From a virus (taxonomy: Duplodnaviria; Caudoviricetes), in IMG/VR virus record IMGVR_UViG_3300042475_001147, positions 1 to 63,767 of that record: 63,767 nt of DNA, one strand, 5' to 3'. The number at the start of each line of letters is the position of its first letter. Within the stretch, counting starts at the first letter, position 1. Under the pieces are notes generated by a model. The model was not told where the DNA came from. It did no database searches and saw nothing but the letters and a program-made list of their open reading frames with translations. Both the position numbers and the translations under genes were made by a program. Below are positions 10,614-45,865 of this stretch, piece after piece.

Positions 10614-13600
10614 ATGGATGAATTGCAAAAGTTATACGATGTTCTCATAAGAGATGGATACTATACTAAATCATTTGATGATTTCAAAGTTCAGTTTCAA
10701 GATCCGGGATATCAAGACAAAGTATATGGCGTAGTAGAGAGAGATGGTTTATTTACAAAAGGTAAAGACGCTTTCATTCAGAAATACACGTCACAGGCAG
10801 AGCCTATTGCTGTAAAAAAAAAAGAACCGTCAGAACTTCCGTGGAACCAAAAGCCAGCAGAGCCAAAGGAAGAACCTGCACTCCCGTTTTTGGAATCCAA
10901 GCCTTCGGGTATTTCTTTGGGATCTCAAAGAGTTCCTGAGACTGCCCCTATGTTTGAGGCTCCTCCAATGAGGACCCCCGAAGAAGCACAAGCAATAGTA
11001 GAAGCACCGCAAACCGCCGACTCCGAACAGGGTTGGCTACTTAACACCGTGTCCGCATTGGATCGAGGATTCGCCAAGAACTTAATCGGGAATCCCGTCA
11101 AGGGTATGGGTACATTGCTCGAAGGAGCAACAGCAAAAGTATTTGGTGGGACAGGAAAGGGTCCAATCAGTGATGCATTAATAAGTTTTGGTAATTACTA
11201 CAACAATGCCATTGACGAACTCACTCCTCAAGATGAAGACTTTAAAAACAGTTTGACCGATCAATTTGGCCAAGCATTTGGTCAAGTTGCGTCATTAATA
11301 ATGACAGGCGGTATTGCCGGGGCAGGTAAAGAAGGCGCTGCAATTGCTGCTGCCGCCCCAACAGGAGTCGCAGGCACCGTTGGCGCTGCTGGTAAGCAGT
11401 TGGCTTCTACATTGGTAAGCCCTACCTCTGTGAGTGCGGGTCTATCTATGGGTCAAGCAGAGTTTGACAGAGCCAAAGAATTGGGAGCCACGGACGATCA
11501 AGCATTCGAAGCATTTTACAAGAACGCTGCGGTTGGTTCTGTGCTAGAGCAGATACCTGTTATGCAATTCCTAAAGCGATTCAATCAATCAACAGCCGGC
11601 GGTGTAACGAATTACATCAAAGCCAAGGGTGTTGCAGGATTGACAGGTGGCTTTGAAGAGATGACAACTGAAGTCCTTCAACAACTTTATGCCAACAAAA
11701 CTGCTCAAGAAATATACAACATCAACCAAGAACTGCTCGAAGGGGTAGGTGAATCGGGTGGTGTAGGTTTTGGTGTGGGTTTCATCTTGAACGCGATGGG
11801 TGCTAGGGTGAAGAAGTTAAAGAAGGATGGCAAGCCACAAGAAGCACAGTTAATTGAGAATCAAATTGCAGAATTTGAAAACAAACCCGCTACTCCACCA
11901 CCAAGTTACAGTATCAATGGGATAAATATAGATTCGCCCAATGTTATCAATGATATGATTGAGACAATGGATGTTGAGAATCTAAGTAAAGCCAACATTG
12001 AAATCACCAATGACCCCGTTCTTAGTGCAAAGTTGCAAGACAAGATGGTTACATCTTCGATCAAGGAAGAGGTTCGAGAAGCCAATCCCAATTTGGACGA
12101 GGAGACATTGGATCAAATCACCGCATTAGAAAAGGAACGAAAGAAGTTTGAAGGCAAGAAGACACAGTCAGCCAAGGACAAACTTGCTTCTATCAATTCA
12201 CAAATAAAAACACTACAAGAAAATGCCGTTCAAAAGCCAAGCACAGAGGAGGGCGTGTTACGCCCAGAAGAATCCCAAGTGGGATTGCAAGAAGTGGGAG
12301 AAGGAGACGCCAAAGAGCAAGCCCCTGCCCAAGAAGTTGTCCAAGAAGAAGTAGTCACTCCCGACGAGGACTTGCAAGCGGCACTAGATCGGATTGAAAT
12401 CCCCGAGGATACGGAAGCAGTACAGCCTATTGTAACGCCTAGAAATAAGGCTGAAAGAAAGGAGGCTGCTAGAAGGGGGGATATGGTTTATCATAATTTT
12501 GATGGTTCTATAATTGAATCTACTCGTGAGCAATATGATAATGCACTTAAAGAAATCGCAGAAACAGGGGCTATTGAAAATGTATTTAATTATGGCAAGG
12601 AAGTATCATCAAGACAGGCTCCTAACGAATTAGAAATCCAATATGAGCCTAGCCTTCTCTATATGAAAAAAGAGGATGCCGATAGCGATTTAAAACGAAG
12701 AACTAAAGTCGAGGAAATTACCGATAAGGCTGTGGAAGCATTGCCGGGGGTTGACGATGAGTTGAAGACAATCAATGAATCAATCGGCCGTGTCAAGGAA
12801 GAAGTAGACAGGAACAAAGACGAGCAAACTTTGCAAGACCTTAGTGACAAAGTCGCTAGAGCCAAGAAGAATATCGCTACGGCAGATGACACAGATGTTG
12901 CCATCGAGGATTTCAAGCAGGCTGAAAAGGAAAAGACAGACTTTGAAGAAGCGGTAAGCAAAAAGAAAAACTTCAACAAAGTGGAGGCCCTTATCGCTGA
13001 CGAGATATACCAAAAGGATAGAGGCAACTACGAATATCAAGAACTGTTTGACCAAGACCCACGCCTTGCTGCAATACAAAGCGCCAAGGAAACGATTGAA
13101 CTTGGCAAAGGAGATTTCCTTGACGAAGAGGGAGTTGCTAGATACGAGAACGACATTAAAATACTTGAAGAGGATATCGCCAAGTTCCCCGTAAAGCAAG
13201 CAGAGGCTGCACCAAAAGTGTCTTCAAAGACACCAAAGGCAAAGAGCGTCCCCATTCCTGTGGCTATCCCCAAGCCTACTCCAAAACCCGCACCTGCACC
13301 TGCACCTGCGCCATCTGCTGTGGTATCACAGCCCACAACGAAAGCGATAGGGCCAGAGGCATTACGCCAAGAGTATATCGATAAGATTGCGGAGGTAAGA
13401 CTCAACAAGGATAAGTCAAGAACGCCAAAGCAGATTGATGAAAGGGTTAAAGAGTTGCAAGATGAGTACAAGAAACTCAAGGCTGAGATGACTGCTCCCA
13501 AGCCAAAGGCAGAAGCCAAGCCTGCACCAAAAAAAGCAGCGCCGGCACCAAAGGTAGAAGCGAAGGTAGAGCCAGTGGTATCGAAGAAAGACCAAGCAGA

Positions 13601-19562: not shown

Positions 19563-21020
19563 TTACAAACTAAATAAATCTTTCTCAAAGTGTTTAAGTG
19601 TGTAGTCTTTTTTGTCCTTCACTGCTTGGTATATTTTATGCTCGATGCCATCCTTGGCGAAGATCCAATATACCTGGTTCTTCAACCGGTCCATCGTAGT
19701 CATCCGGTCTCTGCTCTGCCAGTAACTCGTCGCACTGAAGTCTATGTTGTAGTACACCAAGTACTCTGCCTTCCTCAATGATATGCCCTCACGCCCCGAC
19801 ACAATCTGAAGCGCGATGTTCTTCCACGTATCGTTGAACTCATCCAACTCCGTAGTCAACTCATCACCGAACACCTGCTTCAGCGCCTCCAACTCCTCCT
19901 TGAACTTGTAGAAGATACCAATCTTGCACCCCTCAAAGTTTTCCTTGATGAACTCTGCCTTGGTGGTGTCGATAATCATTGACTTCCCGCTCTCGAACTT
20001 GATGGTCCCGCTGTACATCTGATGCATCTTGGTCATCAACTTCACCGATGTATCAGCCAGCACCACCTCATCCTTGCCCTCAATCACCAAGTCCGTCTTC
20101 AATCGCTGAATCAACTTGTAAGTAGCCGGCTTCAACTCTACCTCAAGAACTTCTTCGGTGGTCTCGACCACAAAGCCTGCGTCCTTCTGAGAGTAACTGA
20201 TGGTGTATGGCTTCATCATATCTATAATCACTGGCTTACCATCGCTGTAGTCTTTGATGAATAAACTGTTCACCTTCTTGCTCTTGATGTTGGCATACTG
20301 ATCGGCAAAGCGGTAGAAGTTCTTGAACTCCGCGAACGGATTGCCCGGTATGGTGTACACTTGGTGGTACATTTGGCAGTACGACTCCGGCGTTGGCGTT
20401 CCCGACAGCAGTATCACCATTGGCTTTTGCTTGGCGATAATCTGACCGGCCAACTCGGCACGGCCACTTGGCTTAGGGAAAGCACCGAGCGAGTGTGCCT
20501 CATCCAAGATCAACATGTCCCACTTCTTGGTGTCGGCGATGGTGTGCAGACTCTCGTAGTTGATGACGTCAATCTTGAACGATGCACCAAGCATGATGTA
20601 GTCTTGCTCGATGGACGATATGGCTTTCTTCTTGGTGACGAACAGCACGTCCTTGCATCCCATTTTGTCGCTGATCCCAAGCGATGTCAATGTCTTGCCT
20701 GTGCGAACTTCCATCGCCAAGTAAAGGAACCGGTGTCTTTGAAGACACTCGACCCCTTGGTCAATGATCTGTAGTTGGTAATCTCTGAGTTGGATATTTC
20801 CTTTTCCCATTTTATCTAAGTAGAATTTTATGCTGTTGTTTATACGTTCCTCTGCCTCGGGGTTGGGTTCGAACATCGGCTCCTCCACCTGCACATCAAC
20901 CCCTTTGACTTTCTTATTGCGCATGACTGTACTTTCTACGGTACTCTTCAGTAGCAGACACCACTCATACATCTCCTTGTCAGTGTACCCACTAATCGGC
21001 TCAATCAGTTCCCTCATCAT
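19563..21020 (-). CDS. SF2 (SNF2-like) helicase
   Basis: LRDYQ Q-motif, VRTGKT Walker A, LILDEAH, LSGTP, GREGISL, QSRDR. Confidence 0.88.
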   Translation of the reverse strand: MMRELIEPISGYTDKEMYEWCLLLKSTVESTVMRNKKVKGVDVQVEEPMFEPNPEAEERINNSIKFYLDKMGKGNIQLRDYQLQIIDQGVECLQRHRFLYLAMEVRTGKTLTSLGISDKMGCKDVLFVTKKKAISSIEQDYIMLGASFKIDVINYESLHTIADTKKWDMLILDEAHSLGAFPKPSGRAELAGQIIAKQKPMVILLSGTPTPESYCQMYHQVYTIPGNPFAEFKNFYRFADQYANIKSKKVNSLFIKDYSDGKPVIIDMMKPYTISYSQKDAGFVVETTEEVLEVELKPATYKLIQRLKTDLVIEGKDEVVLADTSVKLMTKMHQMYSGTIKFESGKSMIIDTTKAEFIKENFEGCKIGIFYKFKEELEALKQVFGDELTTELDEFNDTWKNIALQIVSGREGISLRKAEYLVYYNIDFSATSYWQSRDRMTTMDRLKNQVYWIFAKDGIEHKIYQAVKDKKDYTLKHFEKDLFSL

Positions 21021-26685: not shown

Positions 26686-26706
26686 AGCCGGTGTCTTTAA
26701 AGACAC

Positions 26707-29548: not shown

Positions 29549-30020
29549 ATTCTACATAAGTTCCGTCGATACTCTTGCGAGCAATGACCTTGTGTGTCCC
29601 GTTGCTGATGTCTGCAATAGCCCCGCATTCATACACACCCACACCATAGTCTGCGGTGTTGGTGATGTGAGACATTGCGCAGTACCACTTGTCGCCATCC
29701 TTCGCTGTCTTGTATGGCTCACGTGGCATCGTCACTGCCACCTTGTCGTTGCGGTAATCTGCATCGTCAAAGAAGCCCATCTGCTCACTCTGTACCAATA
29801 CCTCGTGGGTCTCATTCTCTGATGTCATGATGCGTGCATCTTCGTGTGTTGCTTTGAACTGGGTCAGCGTTAGATCAGCATCAACCGATGCAGTCACACA
29901 CCACACACCACGACGCACCTTGCTGAACTCGATGCAGTCGATAGTGTCTTTGATGACACACGGGTCAGCGACAACCATCTTGCCGGACTTGTTGATGAAC
30001 TTCAGTAATAGGTTAATCAT
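29535..30020 (-). CDS. Hypothetical protein
   Basis: 161 aa; SGKMVVADPC and QMGFFD motifs. Confidence 0.6.
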   Translation of the reverse strand: MINLLLKFINKSGKMVVADPCVIKDTIDCIEFSKVRRGVWCVTASVDADLTLTQFKATHEDARIMTSENETHEVLVQSEQMGFFDDADYRNDKVAVTMPREPYKTAKDGDKWYCAMSHITNTADYGVGVYECGAIADISNGTHKVIARKSIDGTYVEFEIK

Positions 30021-31021: not shown

Positions 31022-31143
31022 GTGTTTGCTTTTGTTTTACGCTTTTGTTACAAGTCCGCATCGAAGATGCGTCCTTGTGTCTTCGAAGACACGGTGATGA
31101 AAAACCAAATTCAAAAGACACCGTGTCCTCTCTGACAACATTA

Positions 31144-31176
31144 CAAAGGTAGTATAAATCTATGACAATTCCAAAT
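31144..31176 (-). promoter_or_regulatory. Early promoter (TTTG-20 nt-TACCTTTG)
   Basis: Canonical Bacteroidota spacing; shares ATTTGGAATTGTCATA with the promoters at 36.9 and 37.1 kb. Confidence 0.75.
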
Positions 31177-31679: not shown

Positions 31680-32280
31680 GGTCGTTTGTGTTGGTGTCAT
31701 CGAAGACACTTTGTAGTTCTGATTTGAATTCTTCCCATTGCTTCCCGTCCATTACTTCTTGCAGGTCTTTGAAGTGTTCGATTGCGTCCTCCAATGAGTC
31801 GTAATCTGCATCCTCTATGCCCTCAAGGATTGAGTCCGTGCCGTCACTCAGTACCCTGTACTGATAGTAGGATAGTTGCTTGTCGTTTGTTACCTCGCCC
31901 ACCTCGGCGCTGAAGAACCCGCCGAAGTCCATGCCAGGCTCCTCGTACTCCGCCTCTACATTGAGGTTGTATACCGCGCTGAGTTTGCGAAAGAACTCAC
32001 ACATAGGACTCCATGCCGACGAGCCTATGAGATTTACGTGGTCTTTGTTGTCGTCGATGTCAACGTCGAACCACTTACTACCATACCGCAAGTACACATC
32101 GTACTCGGGGTCGCCCTCTTGCCACGGAGGCAAGCCCAATGCCACCGAGTAAGTGCCGTACCACAACAGCCCGCTGTTCTCTGCGTTCAATTCCATCGCC
32201 TTGTTTACATTGGCGATTAACTTCTCGAGGTCTGCCCTATCACCGGTAAAGCATGACCAATTCCAACAATGATTTGCCAT
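31666..32280 (-). CDS. YubB/DUF1281 ferredoxin-like domain protein
   Basis: MANHCWN, YGSKW, SAWSP, YEEPGMDFGG. Confidence 0.7.
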   Translation of the reverse strand: MANHCWNWSCFTGDRADLEKLIANVNKAMELNAENSGLLWYGTYSVALGLPPWQEGDPEYDVYLRYGSKWFDVDIDDNKDHVNLIGSSAWSPMCEFFRKLSAVYNLNVEAEYEEPGMDFGGFFSAEVGEVTNDKQLSYYQYRVLSDGTDSILEGIEDADYDSLEDAIEHFKDLQEVMDGKQWEEFKSELQSVFDDTNTNDHDKI

Positions 32281-32819: not shown

Positions 32820-33007
32820 GATTGTGTTTTATTAAGTTGTTCGTCCCATAGTTCTGCCCGGTATTGTATCTCCTGCATATCTAGGTAAACTGTGATTGAA
32901 TCCTCCAATGTATTGTTCCATACTTGGATTGATAGATGGCAATCGCCGGACTCCACTTCGTAGTCGTTGGCTTTGAACCATGCGTGTGCTTTTTCTATTT
33001 GTGTCAT
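32813..33007 (-). CDS. Hypothetical protein
   Basis: 64 aa, coupled. Confidence 0.55.
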   Translation of the reverse strand: MTQIEKAHAWFKANDYEVESGDCHLSIQVWNNTLEDSITVYLDMQEIQYRAELWDEQLNKTQSC

Positions 33008-33237
33008 AGTGTGTAGATTACATTGTCTTGTGCGTCGTCTTGATAGTACATAGCCCCGCCGTCGTTGCCCTCATCATCCTTTTGTGACAGGAGGAAAGAT
33101 CCGTCGGTGAACCTGATAACTAATGGTCTTTTGTACCACCCCATGCCCTTGCACTCCTGCTCGGTCATGTAGCGTACGCTCTCAATCCTCTTGCCTACGA
33201 GGAAAGTAAAGTTGCTTGCGTGCTGTTGGTCTGTCAT
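33004..33237 (-). CDS. Phage hypothetical protein
   Basis: LVGKRI..VRYM...DDEGNDGGA. Confidence 0.65.
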   Translation of the reverse strand: MTDQQHASNFTFLVGKRIESVRYMTEQECKGMGWYKRPLVIRFTDGSFLLSQKDDEGNDGGAMYYQDDAQDNVIYTL

Positions 33238-33782
33238 GATATTTTATTTAAGATTGCCTCCTTGATTTCTGCCGTGGTAATCCTTGACAAGTAACTACCC
33301 AATTCATCCTTGAGTCCGCTTGTTTCGTGGTCGTGTCCGTAGTAGCCGAGGTTCGTGTCGACCAACTCAGTGTCTTCGAAGACACTCACTCCAAACATCT
33401 CGCCGTTCATGTAGTGGCTGAATGTTTTTAGTTCGCTTGTCGCCCACTTATACGCCTGCTCTGCCGTACCTGATTCTAGCACGATAAAGCCAACCTTGCC
33501 CGAGTCCCACTTACAGTCGAATGAATTGATTGAGAATGCCAACCCGCTGTGGTCGTACATGAATACCGGGTATACCCACTTGTACTGAAGTTGCAATGCC
33601 TCTTCCATCTCAGCCCACGATGCGTAGTCCTCGTGTCTAATGCCAATCTCGTTGGGGAAATTGTACCGCTTGTGGAACAGGGCGAACTTGGTCTCATTGT
33701 CCCACTCTCGTGGGCTGTCTGCAAACTGATCGTAGAATATCTCTACCGAGATATTGTCTACACTGATTTCTTGTTCTATCAT
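33234..33782 (-). CDS. Acidic phage hypothetical protein
   Basis: SPREWDN, YDHSG, WDSG.VGFI motifs. Confidence 0.65.
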   Translation of the reverse strand: MIEQEISVDNISVEIFYDQFADSPREWDNETKFALFHKRYNFPNEIGIRHEDYASWAEMEEALQLQYKWVYPVFMYDHSGLAFSINSFDCKWDSGKVGFIVLESGTAEQAYKWATSELKTFSHYMNGEMFGVSVFEDTELVDTNLGYYGHDHETSGLKDELGSYLSRITTAEIKEAILNKIS

Positions 33783-33786
33783 GGTT

Positions 33787-34461
33787 TTAGTTATTAATCG
33801 GTGTCGTCACGACACCGCTTAGCATATCAATTAGTTGGTCGCTTGTGTAGGTTACGTGTTCGTCGTCGTAGTCCGTGGCTTGGATAAATCCTTCGCGTAG
33901 TTCTTCGTCGATGTCGTAACTGTCCATATACTCACGCAAGTATTCGTGTATCATCCACTCTTCTTGGCATTGGAACAACTTGGCATTGGTGTACCCACCA
34001 CGAGCATCGCATCCGCCGTGAATTTGTAGCAACAAGTACTGCTCGTCGTTGATGGTAAGCCAACTGCCTTGCAGTATCTGCGATAGGTCTGACTCCCCAT
34101 TGTAGGTGTTGAAAGTGTGTCCAATCCTCACCTCGCACTTGGTGTCAAGCCAATCCCATTGTGCCTTGCTGACGCCATACACCTCGCCATCCGCATCCCA
34201 ATCCTGGCATGGCATCTCGTTGAAGTAATCGCATACCCAATCCGTTTGTAGTTGGCTTAGGTAATGGAACACCGACACTCGCCTATCCAAATAGTTTCCA
34301 CACCTGTGGTAGGTGTAACTCTCCTCGGGTTCGCCTTCGAAATCCTCGATGGTCTTACCTTGGTTCCGCTCCCATGCCCTGCCGTACGCACCCCCACTAT
34401 CGAGGAAGTGCGTGCCGGTATTCTCTATGAGCATGCCGTAAATTATTTCTTTGGTTCTCAT
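33787..34461 (-). CDS. Acidic phage hypothetical protein
   Basis: ENTG.H.LDSGGAYGR.W, NTYN.E..LSQ, QIHGGCDARGGYT. Confidence 0.7.
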   Translation of the reverse strand: MRTKEIIYGMLIENTGTHFLDSGGAYGRAWERNQGKTIEDFEGEPEESYTYHRCGNYLDRRVSVFHYLSQLQTDWVCDYFNEMPCQDWDADGEVYGVSKAQWDWLDTKCEVRIGHTFNTYNGESDLSQILQGSWLTINDEQYLLLQIHGGCDARGGYTNAKLFQCQEEWMIHEYLREYMDSYDIDEELREGFIQATDYDDEHVTYTSDQLIDMLSGVVTTPINN

Positions 34462-34778
34462 GATAACTCGTCTCTTAAATTAGCCATTATCTGATAAGCC
34501 CAATCCTTGATGGAGCCATCGACTGAATACTCCCAACTCAAATCGACCGTGATGTCCATTCCACATACACTTGTGTCCATTTCCACCATGTCGGTGAGAT
34601 ACATGTCGCTTCTGAAGTTGCTTGCCAACTCCTCTGCGATGCGTCTAATCACCTCGTCGGTGAGTGTCATCGAAGACACTTGGTTTGCCTTTGCCTCAGC
34701 AAGCAATGCCTGCATCTGCTGTAAATTTGCCTCGGTGCGTTGCACCATTTCTTCCATGATTTTGATTTGGTTTTCCAT
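34458..34778 (-). CDS. Hypothetical protein (MENQIK)
   Basis: ATG 34778 after A-rich leader. Confidence 0.55.
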   Translation of the reverse strand: MENQIKIMEEMVQRTEANLQQMQALLAEAKANQVSSMTLTDEVIRRIAEELASNFRSDMYLTDMVEMDTSVCGMDITVDLSWEYSVDGSIKDWAYQIMANLRDELS

Positions 34779-34788
34779 ATTTGTTTTT

Positions 34789-35160
34789 TTAATTGGTTTG
34801 CTCTTGCGGTGTCGTAACGACACTAGTTTCTCGTTTGTCGTACTCAACAAGGGGCGTTTCGGTGCCGTCAATCTCGTTGAATGCCTTGATTAAATAGTTT
34901 GCGTAGGTTACATAGAAATCAGGGCTGAAAAAGCCTATAATTCCTTTTGCCATATCTGCCCTGTCTTTCTCGTAGATCTTGGGAATCTGCCCTACCAACA
35001 CTTTCGTGTCGCTTTGAATCCGTTGCAATAAATACATCGCATACATTGGATGCATAGTCATGATGGCATCAGCCAACATTGCCTGTTGTGATTTTTTCTT
35101 CTTACTCATGATTTGTGTTCTATTAAAAGGGTTTCTATTCTTTTTAGTTGCTTTTGCCAA
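34789..35160 (-). CDS. Hypothetical protein
   Basis: Start probably the internal MSKKKK at 35109 (ATGA-coupled). Confidence 0.55.
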   Translation of the reverse strand: MAKATKKNRNPFNRTQIMSKKKKSQQAMLADAIMTMHPMYAMYLLQRIQSDTKVLVGQIPKIYEKDRADMAKGIIGFFSPDFYVTYANYLIKAFNEIDGTETPLVEYDKRETSVVTTPQEQTN

Positions 35161-35420
35161 TAGTTGTATTCCTCCCGAGTTTGCTCATTGGGTTCGTTGT
35201 TGTAGTCCTCATCTATCGCATCCATTGCGACATGAACTGCCCTAATCATTTCATCCAACTCGAAGTCGTTCGTCACCGAGTCTATGAATACGTTTGAGGT
35301 TGCGTCTGCGAGTTTGTAGCCATCCAAGAACGCCATCGCTAATGCCATGTCGTCAAAGGTTGCGATGGTTTGCGTACCCAAATCGCCCAAGTCAATGCCC
35401 ACTTCGTATATCTTCCTCAT
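35106..35420 (-). CDS. Hypothetical protein (MRKIYEVG)
   Basis: ATGA-coupled to the RadC-like gene. Confidence 0.55.
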   Translation of the reverse strand: MRKIYEVGIDLGDLGTQTIATFDDMALAMAFLDGYKLADATSNVFIDSVTNDFELDEMIRAVHVAMDAIDEDYNNEPNEQTREEYNYWQKQLKRIETLLIEHKS

Positions 35421-35896
35421 GACATCAAGCCCTCCTCTGCCATGGATGTGTATGATTCCAGTGTGAGTATAATGTGGTCGACCAACTTGATATCGAAGAG
35501 GTTCAGTGCCTGCTTGATTTGCCCTGTAATCTTGATATCTTGGTCGGATGGGGTCTTGTTGCCACTCGGGTGATTGTGCATCAATACCACTCCCGATGCA
35601 TTGCACATCAACGCACTTTGAACCATGCCCTTGACGTCCGCCACAGTGCCGTTGACACTGCCCTTTGACAACTGCATGAACCCAATAGGGCGGTTGTGGT
35701 AGTTCAGATACCCAATCCACATCTCTTCGTGGTGTTCCATCACCTCTTCGGGAAAGATGCCACGAAAGAATTTCGCCGCGTGTTCAGAGTTTCTAATCTG
35801 TGTTTTGACGAGTGACTCGTCAAGATCGGTGCGTCGGTATCCAATACTGACCTCACCCAAGAACCATTTGTTTTTCATATTGCTTTTGTTTTGCAT
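35417..35896 (-). CDS. RadC-like JAB-domain protein
   Basis: EE.WI.YLN..N, SKG...GT.AD, HNHPSG...PS..D, LVDHII. Confidence 0.88.
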   Translation of the reverse strand: MQNKSNMKNKWFLGEVSIGYRRTDLDESLVKTQIRNSEHAAKFFRGIFPEEVMEHHEEMWIGYLNYHNRPIGFMQLSKGSVNGTVADVKGMVQSALMCNASGVVLMHNHPSGNKTPSDQDIKITGQIKQALNLFDIKLVDHIILTLESYTSMAEEGLMS

Positions 35897-35906
35897 CCTA
35901 GTGTCG

Positions 35907-36239
35907 TTACGACACCGATTCCTCGGATATAAAGAATTTCAAATCCGCATTGTTTTCAGCGATGAGTTCACGCATTTTTGCCTCGGCTTTCTCTCTTGTA
36001 AAGTGTACGCTGTACATGATGTACTTGTCCATATCGGTTGAATACTCGTCTTCTGAATACACCATGAATACACTTGTTGGTATCGGTGGTGGCGGATCTA
36101 CCACGCTCTCGGTGAGTATGCCGTGATTGTTGATGGCAAGTTGCTCAAACGCAGGTAGCAATGCCATGTAAGTCCATTCATCTGCGATGGTAGCCACACA
36201 TTCCGCATGACCGCCGTGTTCTATGTATACATTTATCAT
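35907..36239 (-). CDS. Hypothetical protein
   Basis: Its TAA stop is the centre of the palindrome at 35901. Confidence 0.55.
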   Translation of the reverse strand: MINVYIEHGGHAECVATIADEWTYMALLPAFEQLAINNHGILTESVVDPPPPIPTSVFMVYSEDEYSTDMDKYIMYSVHFTREKAEAKMRELIAENNADLKFFISEESVS

Positions 36240-36247
36240 GTGTTGGT

Positions 36248-36445
36248 TTATTTTGATACAATCCTTATATACCATAGGTCTGATATATTTTCTTGGTTAA
36301 ACTCAAACTCAAACCCTTTGAGCGTGTAAACTAATCCTTGCTTCTCTGCAATCTCCATAAATTCATCGTCAGACAAGTCCATAATAAATCTTGTTGTTGA
36401 GCCTTCCCATTCATTAGGGTTGATGGCGTAGATTCTGTGTTCCAT
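36248..36445 (-). CDS. Hypothetical protein
   Basis: LSDDEFMEIAEKQGLVYTL..FE..FN. Confidence 0.6.
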   Translation of the reverse strand: MEHRIYAINPNEWEGSTTRFIMDLSDDEFMEIAEKQGLVYTLKGFEFEFNQENISDLWYIRIVSK

Positions 36446-36457
36446 ATTTGCTAGTGT

Positions 36458-36646
36458 TTATTTTGAGTGTCGTAACGACACCAGTTTTTCAATTTGTTCG
36501 GGCGTCTCCGTTACACGGATAGTTCCGATAATAGTTGATACCATCGTGCCACCATCGGTTGCCGATGCCACATAGATAGAACTTGGGTTGACCAAGACAC
36601 GGCGTGTCTCACCGCCCACAATGATTTGGTGTAATGCGATTAACAT
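36458..36646 (-). CDS. Small beta-rich hypothetical protein
   Basis: VLVNPSSI...IRVTETPEQI pattern. Confidence 0.55.
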   Translation of the reverse strand: MLIALHQIIVGGETRRVLVNPSSIYVASATDGGTMVSTIIGTIRVTETPEQIEKLVSLRHSK

Positions 36647-36909
36647 AGTTGTTTAGTTAGTTCGTTCGTGTGCCTTTCAATTAACCCATAAGCGTTACAT
36701 ACGCTCTGTGCAAACGCCTCAATTTCATGCCTTGACGCGTTCGGTGTCGTAACGACACCGCTTTGCATCAGATAATAGTCGGCGATGGTTTGCAACATCT
36801 CCTTGTACATACATACGGCACGCTCTCGGGTGCATTTGTTAAATGTCATCAACTGCATGATGACCTTGTCGGATAGTGTCGTAACGACACCGCTTTTTTG
36901 GTTATTCAT
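36640..36909 (-). CDS. Hypothetical protein containing two palindrome-encoded SGVVTT motifs
   Basis: ATG after AAATCAAATCAAA leader, downstream of the promoter. Confidence 0.55.
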   Translation of the reverse strand: MNNQKSGVVTTLSDKVIMQLMTFNKCTRERAVCMYKEMLQTIADYYLMQSGVVTTPNASRHEIEAFAQSVCNAYGLIERHTNELTKQLC

Positions 36910-36939
36910 TTTGATTTGATTTGGTTCTTATTTCAACAC

Positions 36940-37152
36940 TACAAAGGTACGACAAAGGTATGACAATTCCAAATTGTAAGTCGTGCATCTCCAAGTTGTG
37001 AACTGACTTGCCTTGTGAGTGAACTTGCCGTGTCGTGGTGTCGTAACGACACCGCTTTTTCTTGCCTTGCCTTGCTCGTGTCCGTGTCTTTCGTTCTTGC
37101 CATTCCATCAACAATACAAAGGTACGACAAAGGTATGACAATTCCAAATTGT
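36940..37152 (-). promoter_or_regulatory. Tandem identical early promoters (38-bp direct repeat, 175-bp period)
   Basis: TACAAAGGTACGACAAAGGTATGACAATTCCAAATTGT at 36940-36977 and 37115-37152; reads TTTG-20 nt-TACCTTTG on the minus strand. Confidence 0.8.
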
Positions 37153-37424
37153 CTTGCCGTTTCGCCAACTTCAAAACTGGGCGTGTCCTTGCCGTGTCAC
37201 CCACCAATTTTTGGTGGGTGGTGGGTGTCGTAACGACACCGAAAATATCGGGCGTTTCTTTCCACCGATGGGGTGTAACTTTCCACCATAAAAAAATGAG
37301 GCGTTAAATTAGGCGTTTTAAGGGCATTAAAATAGTGGGGTGAGGGTTAGGTATACCAAAGGGTGAGAAAGTGCGTGTAATGGCTTAAAATAGGGGTAAA
37401 ATGTAGGGGTGAAATAATAGGGGC

Positions 37425-37457
37425 AAAAAAAATACCCCTCCAATATCGGAGGGGTAT
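37425..37457 (-). terminator. Intrinsic terminator downstream of the 245-aa gene
   Basis: Minus strand ATACCCCTCC-GATATT-GGAGGGGTAT plus T run; second hairpin AACCCCCCAAATTTGGGGGGTT at ~37494-37515. Confidence 0.8.
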
Positions 37458-37539
37458 AATAGTGCTATTAATTAATAACCCATATAAACACGAAACCCCC
37501 CAAATTTGGGGGGTTAGTGTTGGGGGTTAATTGGGTTGC

Positions 37540-38277
37540 TTATTTGAGCAACTTGTTAACGGCAATGGGTTTCTTTTCCCTTTGCACTGCATCCAATTTC
37601 TCACGCTGTTTGGGCGTTGTCTTTTTCTCCGCATACTTGCTCTTGATGTGGGCAGTAATGCGTATCAAAAGTTCGTTAATTTCCGCGTCGGTGAAATTCG
37701 TTTCACTTGTGCCGTCGGTGAAAAAGTTCAATTTTAACTTTCCCGATTTGATACCCCAAAGGGTTTCACGGCGTTCGCCACCATCACGCAAATCGGATAA
37801 ACTTTCGCCGTCGGTGTCCGCCTCGCCCTTGTGGTCGTCGTAACTTTTCGCCCATGTGTTGAGGGCATCAATAGAACGCGTCGGGGTTTCGCCGTTTGCC
37901 TCCATCTCATCACATTTGGCGATAAATTTGTTCACGATGTTGGGGGCGATACCGCCGACCTTGACAAGGCGATGAAACCAACTTTTTGTGATTTTGTAAA
38001 CCGCCCAAATTATGGCGTCTTGATTTGGTAACTCCTTTGCAGTCAAGCCCTCATCTTTCAACTTGTTTTTCACCGCCTTGCAAAACTCATCAAAAATGGG
38101 TTTCAACTTTGCCAAATCTTGTGCAAGAATGAGAGACGCCGTAAATTTCGCCTTGTCAAGGTCGTTCAATTTGCTAAACGCAGTTTTAATCTCGTTCACT
38201 TTCAACGCCTTGCTTTGCTTTCCTTTTGAAGCCATTAACATTCCGCTAATGGTTGCTTCGATTTTTTGGTTTTTCAT
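37540..38277 (-). CDS. Basic 245-aa protein, first gene of the early arm; possibly DNA-binding
   Basis: Monocistronic with its own promoter and terminator; Lys-rich, helical. Confidence 0.7.
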   Translation of the reverse strand: MKNQKIEATISGMLMASKGKQSKALKVNEIKTAFSKLNDLDKAKFTASLILAQDLAKLKPIFDEFCKAVKNKLKDEGLTAKELPNQDAIIWAVYKITKSWFHRLVKVGGIAPNIVNKFIAKCDEMEANGETPTRSIDALNTWAKSYDDHKGEADTDGESLSDLRDGGERRETLWGIKSGKLKLNFFTDGTSETNFTDAEINELLIRITAHIKSKYAEKKTTPKQREKLDAVQREKKPIAVNKLLK

Positions 38278-38297
38278 ATTTCGTCATTAAGACGATA

Positions 38298-38329
38298 CAA
38301 TACTACTACAAAGATTTTACAATACCAAA
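38298..38329 (-). promoter_or_regulatory. Early promoter variant (TTTG-20 nt-TAGTATTG)
   Basis: Same spacing as the other early promoters; TTTGGTATTGT resembles TTTGGAATTGT. Confidence 0.55.
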
Positions 38330-38583
38330 CTATTTGTATTTTTTTCGGTGTCGGTGTCGTAACGACACCGCGTAAACCCTTGATAGTCAAGGGGTTGCGG
38401 GGTTGGGGGTAAAATACACAATTTGCGGGTGTGCATCACGATGGAGGGCAACCCCATAGCCAAAAGGCGATGAATCTATGAAAAAAGGGCAAAAATCGGG
38501 GCAAAAAAGGGGAAAAGGGGAGGGGGGCTATGCGAAAAAAAGTGACTTTCTCTATGGGTCGTGCGCGCAAATCGGGGGGTATA

Positions 38584-38638
38584 ACCCCCACACTGAGAGT
38601 GTCTAGTATCTCCTGTACCCCCACACTGAGAGTATCTA
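38584..38638 (+). repeat. 22-bp direct repeat ACCCCCACACTGAGAGTRTCTA, 2 copies
   Basis: 38584-38605 and 38617-38638, 21/22 identical. Confidence 0.9.
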
Positions 38639-38673
38639 ACCTCTTCAAGAACATTGCTTATATTTGCTCAATC

Positions 38674-38886
38674 ATGATAAAGAAGTTCAACATTGTAGCG
38701 AGCCATATCAGTTATGGTGCTACGCAAGAGAGTCCCAGTTACGAGATGGGCATTAGCAAGTATGCGCAGATGCGCAAGGATCGTATGAAGGAGCAGAAGA
38801 TTGAGATGATGAGCGAGGCATACAAGAGAGCCGAGCGAAGTGAGGATGCAATGGAGATGCTTATGCCAATTGTAAAACGCGGTTAA
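38674..38886 (+). CDS. 70-aa hypothetical protein
   Basis: TATATTTG at 38659-38666 upstream; terminator downstream. Confidence 0.6.
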   Translation: MIKKFNIVASHISYGATQESPSYEMGISKYAQMRKDRMKEQKIEMMSEAYKRAERSEDAMEMLMPIVKRG

Positions 38887-38930
38887 GCGCATCAATCACA
38901 TAAGGATGCCGAAGGCAGACTTGTCATTAT

Positions 38931-38956
38931 GAAGGGGGCTATATGCTCCCTTTTTT
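38931..38956 (+). terminator. Intrinsic terminator
   Basis: AAGGGGGC-TATAT-GCTCCCTT plus T run. Confidence 0.7.
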
Positions 38957-39020
38957 CGTCCCCATAGGGCAAGAATTGTCCTATGTCTGACCCCATTTGG
39001 TCCCAAATCGCCCCTCAAAA

Positions 39021-39390
39021 GCCAACATAAATGTCCCCAAATTCAACATAAAGTTGTCATTTTTCGACATAAGTGCCTCGATTTTCAACATAATTGGCCT
39101 AAAAAACAACATGTTTTTGGCATGAATTGAAATTTTCAACATGCCTTATTACTACATAACTTAGACAATTCTACAATACTATGACAATTGCATGTTAAAC
39201 TTAACATAGTTTATGTTAAAAATATGTTGAAATTGAAATTAGTAACTCATTGAAAATAAAGGAGTTAAAAGGAAATATGTTGAAAATGTTGAAAATGAAA
39301 CCGAAATGAAAATAAAAAAAAAAGTTGCGCATTAAGAAAAGAGAGAGAGAGATAAGGAAAAGTCAACATCAACATTAACATATTCAACAT
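39021..39390. other. Origin-like element B
   Basis: CRACAT copies end at 39028, 39049, 39070, 39091, 39112 (exact 21-bp period); core homologous to 23424-23606. Confidence 0.65.
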
Positions 39391-41111: not shown

Positions 41112-41365
41112 AGCCCATCGGAAAGTACATAGTCATCTCCAACATTGAGGAGGAAGTAAAGACGGACACAGGTCTGTTGTTGTCGGCCAGAGATGCTGAC
41201 GAGTTTAGGTACAAGAAGGCCAAGGTAGTGGCTTCGGGAACGGATGTAACCCATATCAAAGAGGGTGATGTGATCCATTATGATAAGGGTCACTCATTCA
41301 CGATGGTGATCAGTGGGCATCACTACACGATCATACAGGAGCGGGATGTAGTTATTGTCCTCTAG
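41108..41365 (+). CDS. groES: Co-chaperonin GroES, 85 aa
   Basis: MKPIGKYIVI...TDTGLLL...KVVASG...IKEGDVI.Y...IIQERDV; ATGA-coupled to groEL. Confidence 0.9.
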   Translation: MKPIGKYIVISNIEEEVKTDTGLLLSARDADEFRYKKAKVVASGTDVTHIKEGDVIHYDKGHSFTMVISGHHYTIIQERDVVIVL

Positions 41366-41855
41366 AGCGGCGTATGCGCTCATTGCGCAGGCGTTCGGCT
41401 TCTTGGGCTGCGGCAAACTCGGCCTCTTTCTTTTTATTCTCCTTGATTTCCTCGACCATAGTGGCCATGAAGTTCTTGTAGCGGGTCTCGAGGTAGCGCT
41501 TACGGCGCTTGTCCATACGTTGGGTGATGGTAGGAAAGCCATCGCCATTGAGGATGGAGTAGATGTTGTTGATTACGCGTTGTGTTTTGATGGTCACTTC
41601 ATAGACATCTCGTTTGGCGTACTTGTTTCCGCTTGGGAGCCTTGTGATCCATCCGCGCTCGCATAGGCTTTGCAGTCGCTTGACGTTCCAAGGCATGGTC
41701 TTTTCGTATTTCTCGAACTGGTAGTTGCTGAAGTATTTTTCATCGTGGATATAGAACAGCACGTCAAGATCATCTTGGTTTAGATTATACTTCATCATGG
41801 TGTACTTCCGTACGATCCTCCAGTACTTCATGTAGGAATAGTGTGGGGCATTCAT
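41352..41855 (-). CDS. Putative winged-helix (MarR-like) protein
   Basis: LNQDDLDVLFYI...LQSLCERGWI...YEVT pattern. Confidence 0.55.
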   Translation of the reverse strand: MNAPHYSYMKYWRIVRKYTMMKYNLNQDDLDVLFYIHDEKYFSNYQFEKYEKTMPWNVKRLQSLCERGWITRLPSGNKYAKRDVYEVTIKTQRVINNIYSILNGDGFPTITQRMDKRRKRYLETRYKNFMATMVEEIKENKKKEAEFAAAQEAERLRNERIRRSRGQ

Positions 41856-44966: not shown

Positions 44967-44984
44967 AATAACTAAATTCGCAAT

Positions 44985-45323
44985 ATGACAACATTCACTT
45001 GGGCAGTAACTGCCCTTTACACAGAAACAGTAGGCACAGAGCAGGACTACGTAGTGATCGCTAACTACCTTGTATTGGGTGGTGATGGCACTTATGGTGC
45101 TGAAATCTCTAACATCGCGCGTTTCTCTACAGAGAACGTAGAGAATTTCGTACCATACGCTGAACTCACAGAGCCAATCGTTATCGGATGGATCCAGGCT
45201 GAGTTGGGTGTGGACGGAGTAGCAAACATCGAGGCATGCATTCAAGGACAGATCGACAGTCAGGCTAATCCTCCTGTTGTTCCTGTGAACACCCCATTGC
45301 CTTGGGCGACACCAGCAAACTAA
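44985..45323 (+). CDS. Fibre-associated protein or chaperone
   Basis: FVPYAELTE..VIGW...QID.Q.NP...PLPW; follows the fibre gene. Confidence 0.6.
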   Translation: MTTFTWAVTALYTETVGTEQDYVVIANYLVLGGDGTYGAEISNIARFSTENVENFVPYAELTEPIVIGWIQAELGVDGVANIEACIQGQIDSQANPPVVPVNTPLPWATPAN

Positions 45324-45337
45324 TTAAATCAAATCAT

Positions 45338-45496
45338 ATGACACAAGAAAACGCAAAGCAAGTAATCGCAGAAGCCCTGCACATGGCAATCGCAAAAGGT
45401 TGCTACGGACTGATCGAAGTTCAGAACATTGTAAAAGCCCTTGAGGTAATCAACGATGTTCCTGTGATTGAGTTCGGATCCGTTGAAGAGGCTTAA
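45338..45496 (+). CDS. Small hypothetical protein
   Basis: ATG after AAATCAAATCAT leader. Confidence 0.5.
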   Translation: MTQENAKQVIAEALHMAIAKGCYGLIEVQNIVKALEVINDVPVIEFGSVEEA

Positions 45497-45511
45497 GCCA
45501 AACCATTAACC

Positions 45512-45547: not shown

Positions 45548-45595
45548 CCAATCATATTATTTAAAATCCATATATTTGTATCAAAGAATAAAAAC

Positions 45596-45862: not shown

Positions 45863-45865
45863 CCG

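What the first reader, a model, noticed from the sequence alone, without database searches (positions are those of the whole stretch)
33799..38370. Polarised palindrome system: GTGTCGTAACGACAC sites packed toward the putative first-entering end
Nine copies of a 15-19-bp palindrome lie in 4.6 kb (33801, 34809, 35901, 36467, 36744, 36876, 37038, 37225, 38354) and I found none elsewhere. Seven have centre A, one T and one C. They override coding: read as VVTT in four places, as VSLRH in one, and as a stop codon in another, so selection acts on the nucleic acid. They share half-sites with the N6 class but hold the terminal territory, overlapping it only at 33.8-34.7 kb. Together the 17 sites form a two-tier gradient starting at the arm-divergence point. 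I know no described phage element like this. Hypotheses: loading sites for a protein that pulls in or shields entering DNA; a parS/matS-like positioning array; operators or decoys for a dimeric regulator with two spacer preferences; or, for N5 only, mRNA hairpins, since four lie at gene 3' ends. Candidate partners are the 245-aa first gene, the winged-helix protein, an ejection protein or a host factor.
Basis: partly seen in the sequence, partly recalled or inferred. Interest (0 to 1): 0.88.

Follow-up and report, generated by a model that had tools for sequence, protein, structure and literature searches.

The report
Palindrome operator array with cognate early protein
A freshwater Bacteroidota phage and its relatives write one exact 15-16-base palindrome many times into their early genes, and the variant used tracks one part of the first early protein, so this is probably an undescribed regulator and binding-site system.

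Summary
Nine exact GTGTCGTNACGACAC sites lie at 33801-38368 and nowhere else in the window, against 0 expected.

- **Family trait.** All 29 loci fetched through the 245-aa first gene carry GTGTC-N5/6-GACAC sites. The outer GTGTC/GACAC never varies. The inner bases differ by lineage: GTTAC here, TTCGAA in most, GTTAAC x14 in GenBank MW202828.1, and GC-rich forms in L026 and L009.
- **Selection on the nucleic acid.** Sites are written into conserved genes by substitution, in all three frames.
- **Mosaic boundaries** fall at the sites.
- **Partner.** The 245-aa family occurs in 7 of 7 array-bearing genomes and is absent from a palindrome-free cultured relative. The protein is itself mosaic. The palindrome class follows its central module, not its C-terminal module. 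A homodimer is predicted.

Best reading (0.5): the protein binds these sites on double-stranded DNA as a dimer and controls early transcription. This works like stoperators, but it is not a member of that system. An RNA-hairpin role remains open. The "first-entering end" idea has no support.

The parts
38354..38368 (.). PAL N5 site 1. It lies upstream of the first-gene promoter, centred about -68 from my inferred start site. The extended 19-bp palindrome is CGGTGTCGTAACGACACCG.
   Evidence: A palindrome starts 90-108 nt upstream of the matched gene start in 26 of 29 loci fetched through the gene. The other 3 (L018, L025, L026) have under 80 nt of upstream sequence.
37225..37239 (.). PAL N5 site 2. 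Intergenic, after the two terminators and upstream of promoter P2. A strong second hairpin follows it directly on the sense strand.
37038..37052 (.). PAL N5 site 3. Intergenic, about +65 from the inferred P2 start and upstream of P3.
36876..36890 (.). PAL N5 site 4. Codons 7-12 of the 89-aa gene (GVVTT), about +52 from the inferred P3 start.
36744..36758 (.). PAL N5 site 5. Codons 51-56 of the 89-aa gene (GVVTT).
36467..36481 (.). PAL N5 site 6. 3' end of the 62-aa gene (VSLRH), 21 nt before the next ATG. It is also a mosaic breakpoint.
35901..35915 (.). PAL N5 site 7. Its centre base makes the TAA stop of the 122-aa gene. It lies 4 nt before the RadC-like gene ATG and is a mosaic breakpoint.
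34809..34823 (.). PAL N5 site 8. 3' end of the 106-aa gene (VVTT), 30 nt before the next ATG. Also N5 in the L019/L021 lineage.
33801..33815 (.). PAL N5 site 9. 3' end of the 224-aa gene (VVTT), 18 nt before the next ATG. Also N5 in the L019/L021 lineage.
34664..34679 (.). PAL N6 site inside the 106-aa gene (VSSMT). It sits at the same place in all lineages examined.
33370..33385 (.). PAL N6 site (TTCGAA) inside the 182-aa gene (SVFEDT).
31694..31709 (.). PAL N6 site at the 3' end of the 204-aa gene.
31077..31092 (.). PAL N6 site (TTCGAA) in the leader, about +45 to +60 from the promoter at 31144-31175. A second hairpin follows it.
29944..29959 (.). PAL N6 site inside the 161-aa gene.
26691..26706 (.). 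PAL N6 site (TTTAAA centre). Intergenic, 5 nt before an ATG.
20733..20748 (.). PAL N6 site inside the SNF2-type helicase gene (CLQRH). It was made by substitution, with no indel relative to homologues.
13218..13233 (.). A lone PAL N6 site in the late arm, inside the 2486-aa virion gene.
37540..38277 (-). gp245, the first gene of the leftward arm (245 aa, pI 9.4). It is the candidate palindrome reader.
37942..38028 (-). Codons 84-112 of gp245: a helix-turn-helix-like segment (helices 86-94 and 98-108, KSWFHRLVKVG) that co-varies with the palindrome class.
   Evidence: No known HTH family matched.
38299..38330 (-). Inferred promoter P1 of gp245 (TTTG-N20-TAGTATTG, one mismatch to the -7 box).
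   Evidence: Read by eye and the conserved flanks. The consensus is recalled and comes from no call.
37117..37148 (-). Promoter P2, a perfect TTTG-N20-TAnnTTTG.
36942..36973 (-). Promoter P3, a perfect TTTG-N20-TAnnTTTG.
31144..31175 (-). Third perfect promoter of this type.
37424..37513 (-). Two GC-stem hairpins, each followed by a U-tract, after gp245. These look like intrinsic terminators. The palindromes lack such tracts.
   Evidence: Read.
36640..36909 (-). 89-aa gene carrying two embedded palindromes at conserved places.

Best explanation
The palindromes are an array of binding sites (operators) on double-stranded DNA for a homodimer of gp245, the first early protein.

How I think it works:
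- Each monomer reads one GTGTC(G/T) half-site. The two half-site centres are 10-11 bp apart, about one helical turn.
- gp245 is made first, from its own promoter. That promoter has a site just upstream, and two terminators follow the gene.
- As gp245 accumulates it occupies the sites. These lie after the strong host-type promoters and at gene junctions along the leftward arm, and they control early transcription. The most likely effect is shut-off and elongation roadblock, as with stoperators. The sign of the effect is a guess.

Shown:
- The sites are real, exact and family-wide.
- They are selected at the nucleic-acid level.
- gp245 co-occurs with them, and its central module co-varies with their inner sequence.

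Inferred:
- That gp245 binds them.
- That binding is to DNA rather than RNA.
- What binding does.

A demonstrated side effect is that the conserved sites coincide with boundaries of gene-cassette exchange.
For: 1. **Exact and clustered.** 9 of 9 sites are exact, with 0 expected.

2. **Family-wide.** 29 of 29 loci fetched through gp245 alone have sites.
   - G001 has 14 sites, all in its last 9.5 kb.
   - MW202828.1 has 14 of 14 GTGTCGTTAACGACAC in 43745-55154.

3. **Conservation pattern.**
   - Of 135 distinct near-matches, 128 have intact outer half-sites.
   - The centre is the variable part: CG 102, TG 22, CA 14 of 141 N6 sites, plus the N5 form.
   - Invariant ends with a variable centre is the pattern of dimer operators. 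That comparison is my inference.

4. **Written into genes by substitution, in three frames.**
   - VSSKT or GVVTT in the 89-aa gene.
   - CVVNDT, SVFEDT and CLQRH in replication genes, with no indels.

5. **Co-occurrence.**
   - The gp245 family has one member in 7 of 7 array-bearing genomes. These include G001, which shares almost no structural genes with the window, and G004/6/7/8, in which blastp found none of the window's other early-arm genes (26-38 kb) apart from one weak gp245 hit and two small ORFs in G008.
   - Flavobacterium phage elemoA has neither a repeated palindrome nor a gp245 hit.

6. **Specificity co-variation in a natural 2x2**.
   - Central module A (helix KSWFHRLVK) goes with G at position 6: WIN, L026, L009.
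   - Central module B (KS[FY]xYK) goes with T at position 6: L019, G001 and others.
   - The C-terminal modules cross-assort. WIN-L019 are 89% identical there and G001-L009 83%, while WIN-L009 are 34%.
   - MW202828.1 has a third helix (KAQGHKYAR) and a third palindrome (GTTAAC).

7. **Homodimer predicted.** Score 0.72 against a best control of 0.00. In the tool's calibration this mark was reached by 20 of 30 proteins solved as pairs and 1 of 23 solved as single chains. Runs agreed in at least 57% of contacts, and partner pLDDT was at least 75.

8. **Site upstream of the gene's own promoter.** This site lies outside the transcript that I infer for P1, and it is present in 26 of 29 loci.

9. 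**No consistent strand bias of asymmetric centres.** TG 22 against CA 14. In G006 both orientations occur in each arm.

10. **The other universal DNA-binding candidate does not track the class.** The DnaA_C-like protein has helix HSSxIHGI both in MW (GTTAAC) and in G006/G007 (TTCGAA).
Against: - **gp245 matches no known DNA-binding family.** Pfam gave nothing. A PDB profile search gave a best E-value of 0.43. Foldseek gave nothing at E <= 0.001 for the whole model, nor for the high-confidence central domain (pLDDT 90.5). 'Helix-turn-helix' therefore rests on predicted secondary structure and on a sequence pattern that I recall.
- **The co-variation rests on about three independent class changes.** Genetic linkage of the gene and the proximal sites cannot be fully excluded.
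- **Both classes coexist in one genome.** The window has 9 N5 and 8 N6 sites, and L019/L021 have 2 N5 among N6 sites. A single reader must tolerate both, or some sites are relics.
- **Features that point to a single-stranded hairpin.**
  - The inner pair 6-11 changes T-A to G-C on both sides (108 against 13).
  - In some relatives the flanks extend the stem with different sequences.
  - A second, variable hairpin follows 48 of 122 sites. The same measure gives 23 of 122 upstream and 106 of 520 at random.
  - In G006 one site is the apex of a terminator-like hairpin with a U9 tract.
- **Site positions relative to promoters fit no single mode.** They lie at -68, -110, -122 and +45 to +70.
- **No binding or expression data exist.** Metatranscriptome contigs gave no transcript ends.
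Confidence: 0.5

Rival explanations
1. The element works as an RNA hairpin in the early transcripts. gp245 or a host factor binds it, as lambda N binds boxB in nut sites or as HK022 put RNA acts. Alternatively it is a processing or stability signal between cistrons.
For: - All sites in the arm lie in the transcribed sense direction.
- 3 of 3 perfect host-type promoters have a site 45-70 nt downstream of the start.
- In MW202828.1 the usual layout is stop, 3 nt, palindrome, 17-25 nt, ATG.
- Two-sided changes keep pairing at positions 6-11, and in some relatives at the flanks.
- A variable second hairpin is enriched just downstream: 48 of 122 against 106 of 520 at random.
- gp245 is the first gene, is basic (pI 9.4), diverges fast and is followed by terminators, like lambda N. 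That comparison is recalled.
Against: - The stem base is invariant while the loop is the most variable part. RNA-hairpin readers usually show the opposite (recalled).
- The conserved site upstream of the gp245 promoter should not be transcribed.
- About half of the sites lie inside genes at conserved places, where cleavage would be harmful.
- There is no consistent strand bias of asymmetric centres.
- The 6-8-bp stems lack U-tracts, whereas the two terminator-like hairpins after gp245 have them.
- No Rfam family matched.
- A symmetric homodimer is predicted.
Confidence: 0.2
2. The main role is as recombination linkers. Short identical sequences at gene boundaries let co-infecting relatives exchange gene cassettes, as PeSL elements do in T4-type phages. 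The regulatory look is secondary.
For: - Homology breakpoints fall at the sites.
  - The WIN/L015 alignment ends at the last base of the 36467 site, and the 65-aa gene is an indel beside it.
  - WIN/L021 are 75.8% identical up to that site, non-homologous between two sites, then 92.9% identical from the base after the 35901 site.
  - Gene order differs at sites in L010, L011 and L028.
- A relative in an RNA-library contig joins 36227 to 36467, exactly at a site.
- The phage encodes a Sak annealing protein and a PDDEXK exonuclease.
- PeSL precedent: PMC2839356 (passages read) and PMC4122927 (abstract read).
Against: - 15-16 bp is short for homologous exchange.
- About half of the sites lie inside conserved genes, including replication genes, where no cassette boundary exists.
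- Linkers would not need palindromy, an invariant GTGTC, or co-variation with a protein module.
- Breakpoints at gene junctions are expected anyway.
Confidence: 0.08
3. A host factor or another phage function reads the sites. Candidates are a host regulator, a Chi-like signal that tames a host exonuclease, the phage primase-helicase, or a protein that organises, partitions or protects incoming DNA.
For: - The same exact 16-mer occurs in phages in which blastp detected none or almost none of the window's early genes.
- Besides gp245, only four families are universal: SNF2 helicase, primase-helicase, exonuclease and the DnaA_C-like protein.
- Site density falls with distance from the divergent promoter region.
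Against: - Lineage-specific inner variants that are uniform within a genome (14 of 14 in MW202828.1) need a lineage-specific reader.
- The profile search did find gp245 in all of these genomes.
- Bacterial genomes show no arrays. 85 stretches were found in 596 billion bases, against about 139 expected by my arithmetic. Multi-hit genomes were longer REP-like palindromes or mis-binned phage contigs.
- The DnaA_C-like helix does not track the class.
- No physical genome end is known.
Confidence: 0.12
4. The palindromes are hairpin-form promoters for a phage RNA polymerase delivered with the DNA, as in coliphage N4.
For: - The elements can form hairpins, are sequence-conserved, and sit 5-30 nt upstream of many early ATGs.
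- A 2486-aa virion protein of unknown function exists.
Against: - The giant protein has no DFDxD motif and no PDB sequence match. Its C-terminal part looks like polyvalent-protein domains.
- G001 keeps a 14-site array, but its largest ORF is 797 aa.
- Perfect host-type promoters already drive the arm.
- Many sites are inside genes.
Confidence: 0.03

Closest known systems
Stoperator/operator arrays of Cluster A mycobacteriophages (L5 gp71-type repressor)
   Same: - Many copies of one short, near-invariant site dispersed along the transcribed genome.
- Sites lie in promoters and in short intergenic spaces, or overlap codons.
- Lineage-specific variants match the cognate protein.
- The proposed action is a block to both initiation and elongation (PMC9283540, passages read; PMC6550527, search listing only).
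   Different: - Stoperators are 13-mer asymmetric sites bound by a monomer, and they act only in one orientation. Here the site is a 15-16-bp palindrome and a homodimer is predicted.
- gp245 matches no family in Pfam, and the repressor structure (PMC9283540) did not appear in the PDB profile search.
- No integrase or lysogeny module turned up among the 46 proteins that I scanned.
PeSL cassettes of T4-type phages
   Same: - Conserved stem-loop-bearing elements lie in front of small orphan early genes.
- Cassette indels and swaps have their breakpoints at the elements (PMC2839356, passages; PMC4122927, abstract; here).
   Different: - PeSLs are about 100-bp composites that hold a sigma-70-type promoter and a variable G/C stem-loop terminator.
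- Here the element is one exact 15-16-mer, without its own promoter (only 3 perfect promoters in the window) and without a U-tract.
- It is also written inside conserved genes.
Lambda N / nut (boxB) antitermination, and HK022 put RNA
   Same: - A 15-nt interrupted palindrome lies downstream of early promoters.
   Different: - Lambdoid phages have two nut sites, not 9-19.
- N is a small arginine-rich peptide that reads the loop. Here the loop is the variable part, one site lies upstream of the promoter, and many lie inside genes.
KorB-OB of IncP plasmids and ParB-parS centromere sites
   Same: 13-16-bp palindromes are scattered over a replicon and bound by a dimer that silences promoters at a distance (recalled).
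   Different: No ParB/KorB domain was found in gp245 or in any of the 46 window proteins that I scanned.
Conserved inverted repeats (CIRs) of Streptomyces phage phiC31, and C1 operators of phage P1
   Same: One operator sequence is repeated at many places in a phage genome and bound by one repressor (recalled; my search returned no relevant paper).
   Different: - Both are temperate systems with known repressor families.
- P1 operators are asymmetric.

Membership tests
Cluster A stoperator system | Many dispersed copies of one short conserved site, in promoters and short intergenic spaces | tested here: met
   17 sites in the window. 6 of 16 left-arm sites have a gene start within 45 nt downstream, against about 12% expected.
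Cluster A stoperator system | An asymmetric 13-mer, bound by a monomer, acting only in one orientation | tested here: not met
   The site is a 15-16-bp palindrome. A homodimer is predicted.
Cluster A stoperator system | A repressor homologous to L5 gp71 (HTH plus stoperator domain) | tested here: not met
   gp245 has no Pfam, PHROG-function or PDB match.
PeSL cassettes | Each element contains a host-type early promoter | tested here: not met
   Only 3 perfect TTTG-N18-22-TAnnTTTG matches in the window, none inside a palindrome.
PeSL cassettes | Stem-loop that terminates transcription | tested here: inconclusive
   A hairpin is possible, but the window's sites have no U-tract, whereas the two terminator-like hairpins after gp245 have one. 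One G006 site has a U9 tract.
PeSL cassettes | Indel and replacement breakpoints at the elements | tested here: met
Lambda N-nut antitermination | Hairpin in the nascent early transcript downstream of early promoters | tested here: inconclusive
   3 of 3 perfect promoters have a site at about +45 to +70. The site beside the gp245 promoter is upstream of it.
Lambda N-nut antitermination | A small arginine-rich-motif protein, and a boxA element | not tested
   gp245 is 245 aa and basic. I ran no search for an arginine-rich motif or for boxA.
REP elements with RAYT transposase | Extragenic location, and a Y1 (RAYT) transposase in the genome | tested here: not met
   10 of 17 window sites are inside genes. 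No transposase appeared among the 46 proteins scanned against Pfam. The smaller right-arm ORFs were not scanned.
ParB-parS / KorB-OB | ParB/KorB-family binding protein | tested here: not met
   No such Pfam hit. One of the 21 aligned gp245-family sequences gave SoPB_HTH at E 0.14, which is not significant.
N4-type hairpin promoters | A virion RNA polymerase | tested here: not met
   No DFDxD motif and no PDB match. G001 has an array but no giant protein. A very divergent polymerase cannot be excluded.

The most novel reading that the evidence does not exclude
gp245 and its palindromes form an undescribed, modular regulator/operator system of virulent Bacteroidota podophages.

- A swappable central module of the first early protein sets which palindrome variant the phage uses. 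At least three natural specificity classes exist.
- The phage then writes that variant by point substitution into promoters, gene junctions and coding sequence, in all three frames, along the early arm.
- The array acts as a whole-arm timer or roadblock. More boldly, it marks the early arm of the incoming genome for protection or staged entry.
- The sites double as linkers for cassette exchange.
Probability: 0.3. Interest if true: 0.78.

Novelty: new variant of a known kind. Interest (0 to 1): 0.68.

Why it matters
- **It explains an unknown first gene.** It gives a testable function to the first gene of a widespread group of lake phages of Bacteroidota, and to a very conspicuous sequence feature of their genomes.
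- **It would add a new regulatory case.** Little is known about the control of early gene expression in Bacteroidota phages. If confirmed, this would be a second, independent case of a phage regulating a whole transcription unit through many dispersed sites.
- **It shows how such systems change specificity.** The natural module swap (central module against palindrome class) shows a protein and its sites changing specificity together. It also offers orthogonal protein/site pairs for genetic tools in Bacteroidota.
- **It bears on phage mosaicism.** The coincidence of sites with mosaic boundaries links regulation to how phage genomes become mosaic.

Tried and rejected
**Close DNA relatives.** blastn of 33000-39000 against GenBank phages found nothing. 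A scan of IMG/VR for the 17-mer gave 3 single, probably chance, hits.

**Flanks of homologues.** I used the search for related loci instead.

**Known RNA families.** Rfam gave 0 hits on the window. It gave only sub-threshold hits plus a tmRNA and a tRNA on three relatives. No tRNA was found in the window.

**gp245 fold.**
- The full-length model (pLDDT 71.5) had no PDB match at E <= 0.001.
- The BFVD viral library gave only unnamed viral proteins.
- The protein atlas gave unnamed viral clusters, plus a weak DUF3102 lead carried by 30% of one cluster's members.
- The central-domain model had no PDB match.

**Virion RNA polymerase idea.** Rejected. The crAss-like phage preprint 10.1101/2020.03.07.982082 (passages read) reports no common motif upstream of its early transcripts.

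**Host regulon idea.** The genome-collection scan was at chance level.

**Transcript ends.** Four metatranscriptome runs, held as contigs only, cover parts of the region. They cannot show starts, ends or strand, and parts without cover mean nothing.

**Strand test.** The G.U-versus-A.C wobble test on flanks was uninformative, because the sense strand is A-rich.

**Helical phasing.** Spacing of adjacent sites varies among lineages (read). I did not pursue it.

**Literature.**
- The exact 15- and 16-mers occur in no phage paper. The 2 hits are unrelated papers.
- A keyword search for palindromic repeats in Flavobacterium phages returned nothing relevant.
- The phiC31 search returned nothing relevant.
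- These searches cover only the held library. Supplementary files were not consulted.

Full report
**1. The observation**

The pattern GTGTCGTNACGACAC occurs 9 times in the window, at the stated coordinates. None was expected in 100 shuffles. Allowing 3 mismatches adds a single weak hit. The window is a whole IMG/VR virus record of 63767 bp, and it holds no further copy.

Seven sites have centre A on the + strand, one has T and one has C. All genes from 18.1 to 38.3 kb are on the minus strand.

- VVTT four times.
- VSLRH once.
- The stop codon of the 122-aa gene is supplied by the centre of the 35901 site.

A second class, GTGTC-N6-GACAC, has 8 sites between 13218 and 34679. Flanks are unrelated beyond 2-4 bases, so the copies are not remnants of one duplication.

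**2. Setting**

- The leftward arm starts with a monocistronic 245-aa gene (gp245, 37540-38277).
- Two GC-stem hairpins with U-tracts follow it. I read these.
- Next come two tandem perfect Bacteroidota-type promoters (TTTG-N20-TAnnTTTG; the consensus is recalled) at 37117-37148 and 36942-36973.
- A third promoter lies at 31144-31175. These are the only three perfect matches in the window.
- Each is followed by a palindrome about 45-70 nt downstream of the inferred start.
- The arm then carries small unknown genes and a RadC-like gene. Further on come a Sak annealing protein, a PDDEXK exonuclease and a DnaA_C-like small protein, then a primase-helicase, an SNF2-type helicase and a VRR-NUC nuclease.
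- The rightward arm starts with GroEL and GroES.
- The closest GenBank record is MW202828.1, with 78% identity in the terminase. Cultured relatives are Flavobacterium and Cellulophaga podophages at about 44%.

**3. Relatives**

Using an alignment of gp245 homologues I fetched 29 loci. All 29 carry GTGTC-N5/6-GACAC sites at matching places. In 26 of them one site starts 90-108 nt upstream of the gene. The other 3 lack upstream sequence.

The outer pentamers never vary, but the inner part depends on lineage:

| Lineage or genome | Inner sequence |
|---|---|
| Loci at least 81% identical in gp245 (L013-L018) | GTTAC (N5) |
| Most other lineages | TTCGAA |
| L011 | TTTGAA |
| L009 | GTCGGC |
| L026 | mixed GC-rich forms |
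| MW202828.1 | GTTAAC, 14 of 14, all in its early arm |

N5 equals the GTTAAC form minus one central base.

Site distribution differs among genomes:
- G001 (36.7 kb, called complete) has 14 sites, all in its last 9.5 kb.
- G004 has 19 sites, 13 of them in 6 kb.
- G006 (complete, 55 kb) has 12 sites spread over the whole genome.

Of 135 distinct near-matches, 128 have both outer pentamers intact.

**4. Selection on the nucleic acid**

- The 89-aa gene is highly conserved. At two fixed places it reads VSSKT in TTCGAA lineages and GVVTT here.
- In replication genes, sites arise without indels at variable positions and in all three frames: CVVNDT, SVFEDT and CLQRH.
- About half of the sites sit at gene 3' ends or junctions. 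In the window this is 6 of 16, against about 12% expected. Over 11 loci it is 27 of 129, against 16.8 expected.
- In MW202828.1 the usual layout is stop, 3 nt, palindrome, 17-25 nt, ATG.

**5. Mosaic boundaries**

blastn of the arm against relatives breaks at the sites:
- WIN/L015 homology ends at the last base of the 36467 site. The 65-aa gene is an indel beside it.
- WIN/L021 are 75.8% identical up to that site and unrelated between two sites. From the base after the 35901 site they are 92.9% identical for 5 kb.

The N5 sites of the window are the seven in the divergent proximal module, plus two that the L019/L021 lineage also has as N5. The 'two-tier gradient' therefore reflects mosaic ancestry.

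**6. Who reads the sites?**

Same-family phages G004, G006, G007 and G008 share structural and replication genes with the window. By blastp they share none or almost none of its early-arm genes. G001 shares the early arm but almost no structural genes.

A profile of gp245 finds exactly one member in each of 7 array-bearing genomes.

An iterated search of all 322 window ORFs of 50 aa or more found real genes with hits in all six other genomes from only five families:
- gp245;
- the SNF2 helicase;
- the primase-helicase;
- the exonuclease;
- the DnaA_C-like protein.

One further ORF with six hits overlaps the primase gene on the opposite strand, and I take it as an artefact.

All 55 gp245-family hits in the fetched loci have a site nearby. 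Several loci duplicate one contig, and loci L037-L104 had been chosen by the palindrome itself.

Flavobacterium phage elemoA has no repeated palindrome and no gp245 hit.

**7. Co-variation**

gp245 is predicted to be mostly helical. Helices 86-94 and 98-108 flank a short turn, and K98, S99, L104 and K106 are invariant or nearly so.

| Helix | Palindrome | Genomes |
|---|---|---|
| KSWFHRLVK | G at position 6 | WIN clade, L026, L009 |
| KS[FY]xYK | T at position 6 | L019, G001 and others |
| KAQGHKYAR | GTTAAC | MW202828.1 |

The protein is mosaic:
- In residues 84-112, WIN is 72% identical to L026 and 62% to L009, but 38% to L019 and 38% to G001.
- In residues 165-235, WIN is 89% identical to L019 and 34% to L009, while G001 is 83% identical to L009.

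All four module combinations exist, and the palindrome class follows the central module. The DnaA_C-like protein does not track the class.

A homodimer is predicted with score 0.72 against a best control of 0.00. In the tool's calibration the mark was reached by 20 of 30 proteins solved as pairs and 1 of 23 solved as single chains. Runs agreed in at least 57% of contacts, and partner pLDDT was at least 75. This is the model's confidence, not a measurement.

**8. DNA or RNA?**

For double-stranded DNA:
- Invariant ends and a variable centre.
- Half-site centres 10-11 bp apart.
- The conserved site upstream of the gene's own promoter.
- No consistent strand bias.
- A symmetric dimer.

For a hairpin:
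- Two-sided change at pair 6-11 (T-A 108, G-C 13 of 141).
- Stem-extending flanks of differing sequence in G004 and others.
- A variable second hairpin just downstream of 48 of 122 sites, against 23 of 122 upstream and 106 of 520 at random. In some relatives it is inserted in frame as 8-17 extra codons in the 89-aa gene.

gp245 matches no known nucleic-acid-binding family. I therefore put the DNA-operator reading at 0.5 and the RNA reading at 0.2.

**9. Comparison with known systems**

- It works most like the stoperator arrays of Cluster A mycobacteriophages (PMC9283540, passages read). It fails their defining features of asymmetry, a monomeric reader and repressor homology.
- It shares cassette boundaries with PeSLs (PMC2839356, passages; PMC4122927, abstract). 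It lacks their promoter and their variable stem.
- I found no paper holding these sequences in a phage context.

I class it as a new variant of a known kind, namely dispersed operator arrays, with a new reader protein.

**10. Limits**

- There are no binding, expression or terminus data.
- The co-variation rests on about three independent class changes.
- The promoter consensus, the helix-turn-helix pattern and several comparators are recalled, not tested.
- Supplementary files were not seen.

Noticed in passing
window 37198-37221 and 31040-31075 (minus strand); L010:11484-11520, L019:1743-1775, L032:4066-4120: A second strong hairpin often starts 3-5 nt after a palindrome. Its stem sequence differs from site to site, and a tail such as TTGTCAA, CGTTAAC or CGTAAC follows. 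It is seen at 48 of 122 sites, against 106 of 520 random places. In some relatives it sits in frame as 8-17 extra codons inside the 89-aa gene, once as a tandem pair.
   Followed up: partly
window 36990-37215 (minus strand) and the matching regions of L013, L015, L021: The promoter region between sites is full of GGCAAG and GACACGG repeats. Extra GACAC half-sites occur on the sense strand only: 12 GTGTC against 6 GACAC on the + strand in 36001-38000, with about 1.7 expected per 2 kb.
   Followed up: partly
window 38375-38395 (minus strand); same place in L008, L010, L011, L019, L021, L032: A second conserved small palindrome, TTGAnTATCAA, lies 11-15 nt upstream of the palindrome that precedes gp245, in all lineages looked at.
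   Followed up: no
window 39017-39112 and 39221-39300: 21-bp-period direct repeats ending in TTCAACAT, with nearby AATATGTTGAAA repeats, lie in the divergent intergenic region. They look like an origin with iterons. The universal DnaA_C-like protein (25410-25733) is a candidate reader.
   Followed up: no
window 1-883 and 62566-63767: The genes at the two ends of the window are neighbours in relatives (G006 19471-20442 and 20442-21353), and MW202828.1 is recorded as circular. The record's ends are therefore arbitrary: the genome is circularly permuted or terminally redundant.
   Followed up: partly
L010:6670-7102 (minus strand): A relative's rightward arm carries a full-length tmRNA gene (83.6 bits, gathering score 47) next to a tRNA.
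   Followed up: no
L107, L110, L120, L126, L159 (Pirellulaceae MAG); L142, L150, L184 (Saprospiraceae MAG); L123: The same 16-mer GTGTCTTCGAAGACAC forms the apex of longer REP-like palindromes, repeated in two bacterial MAGs and present once in a Bernardetia contig. This is probably chance amplified by repeat families, but I did not examine it further.
   Followed up: partly
L156 (Chthoniobacterales MAG), L151 (Chitinophagia MAG), L160 and L175 (Bacteroidota MAGs): Short contigs binned into bacterial MAGs are pieces of phages of this family, with the same flanks as L021 or the window's 161-aa gene. They are mis-binned, or at best weak host hints.
   Followed up: partly
window 41352-41855 (minus strand): A 167-aa gene lies on the opposite strand beside GroES. 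It is conserved in G006, G007 and G008 at about 30% identity, and its MW202828.1 counterpart is annotated 'repressor protein'. It has no Pfam hit here.
   Followed up: no
window 37540-38277: gp245 is itself a recombinant mosaic of at least three modules (N-terminal, central, C-terminal), which assort independently among lineages.
   Followed up: yes
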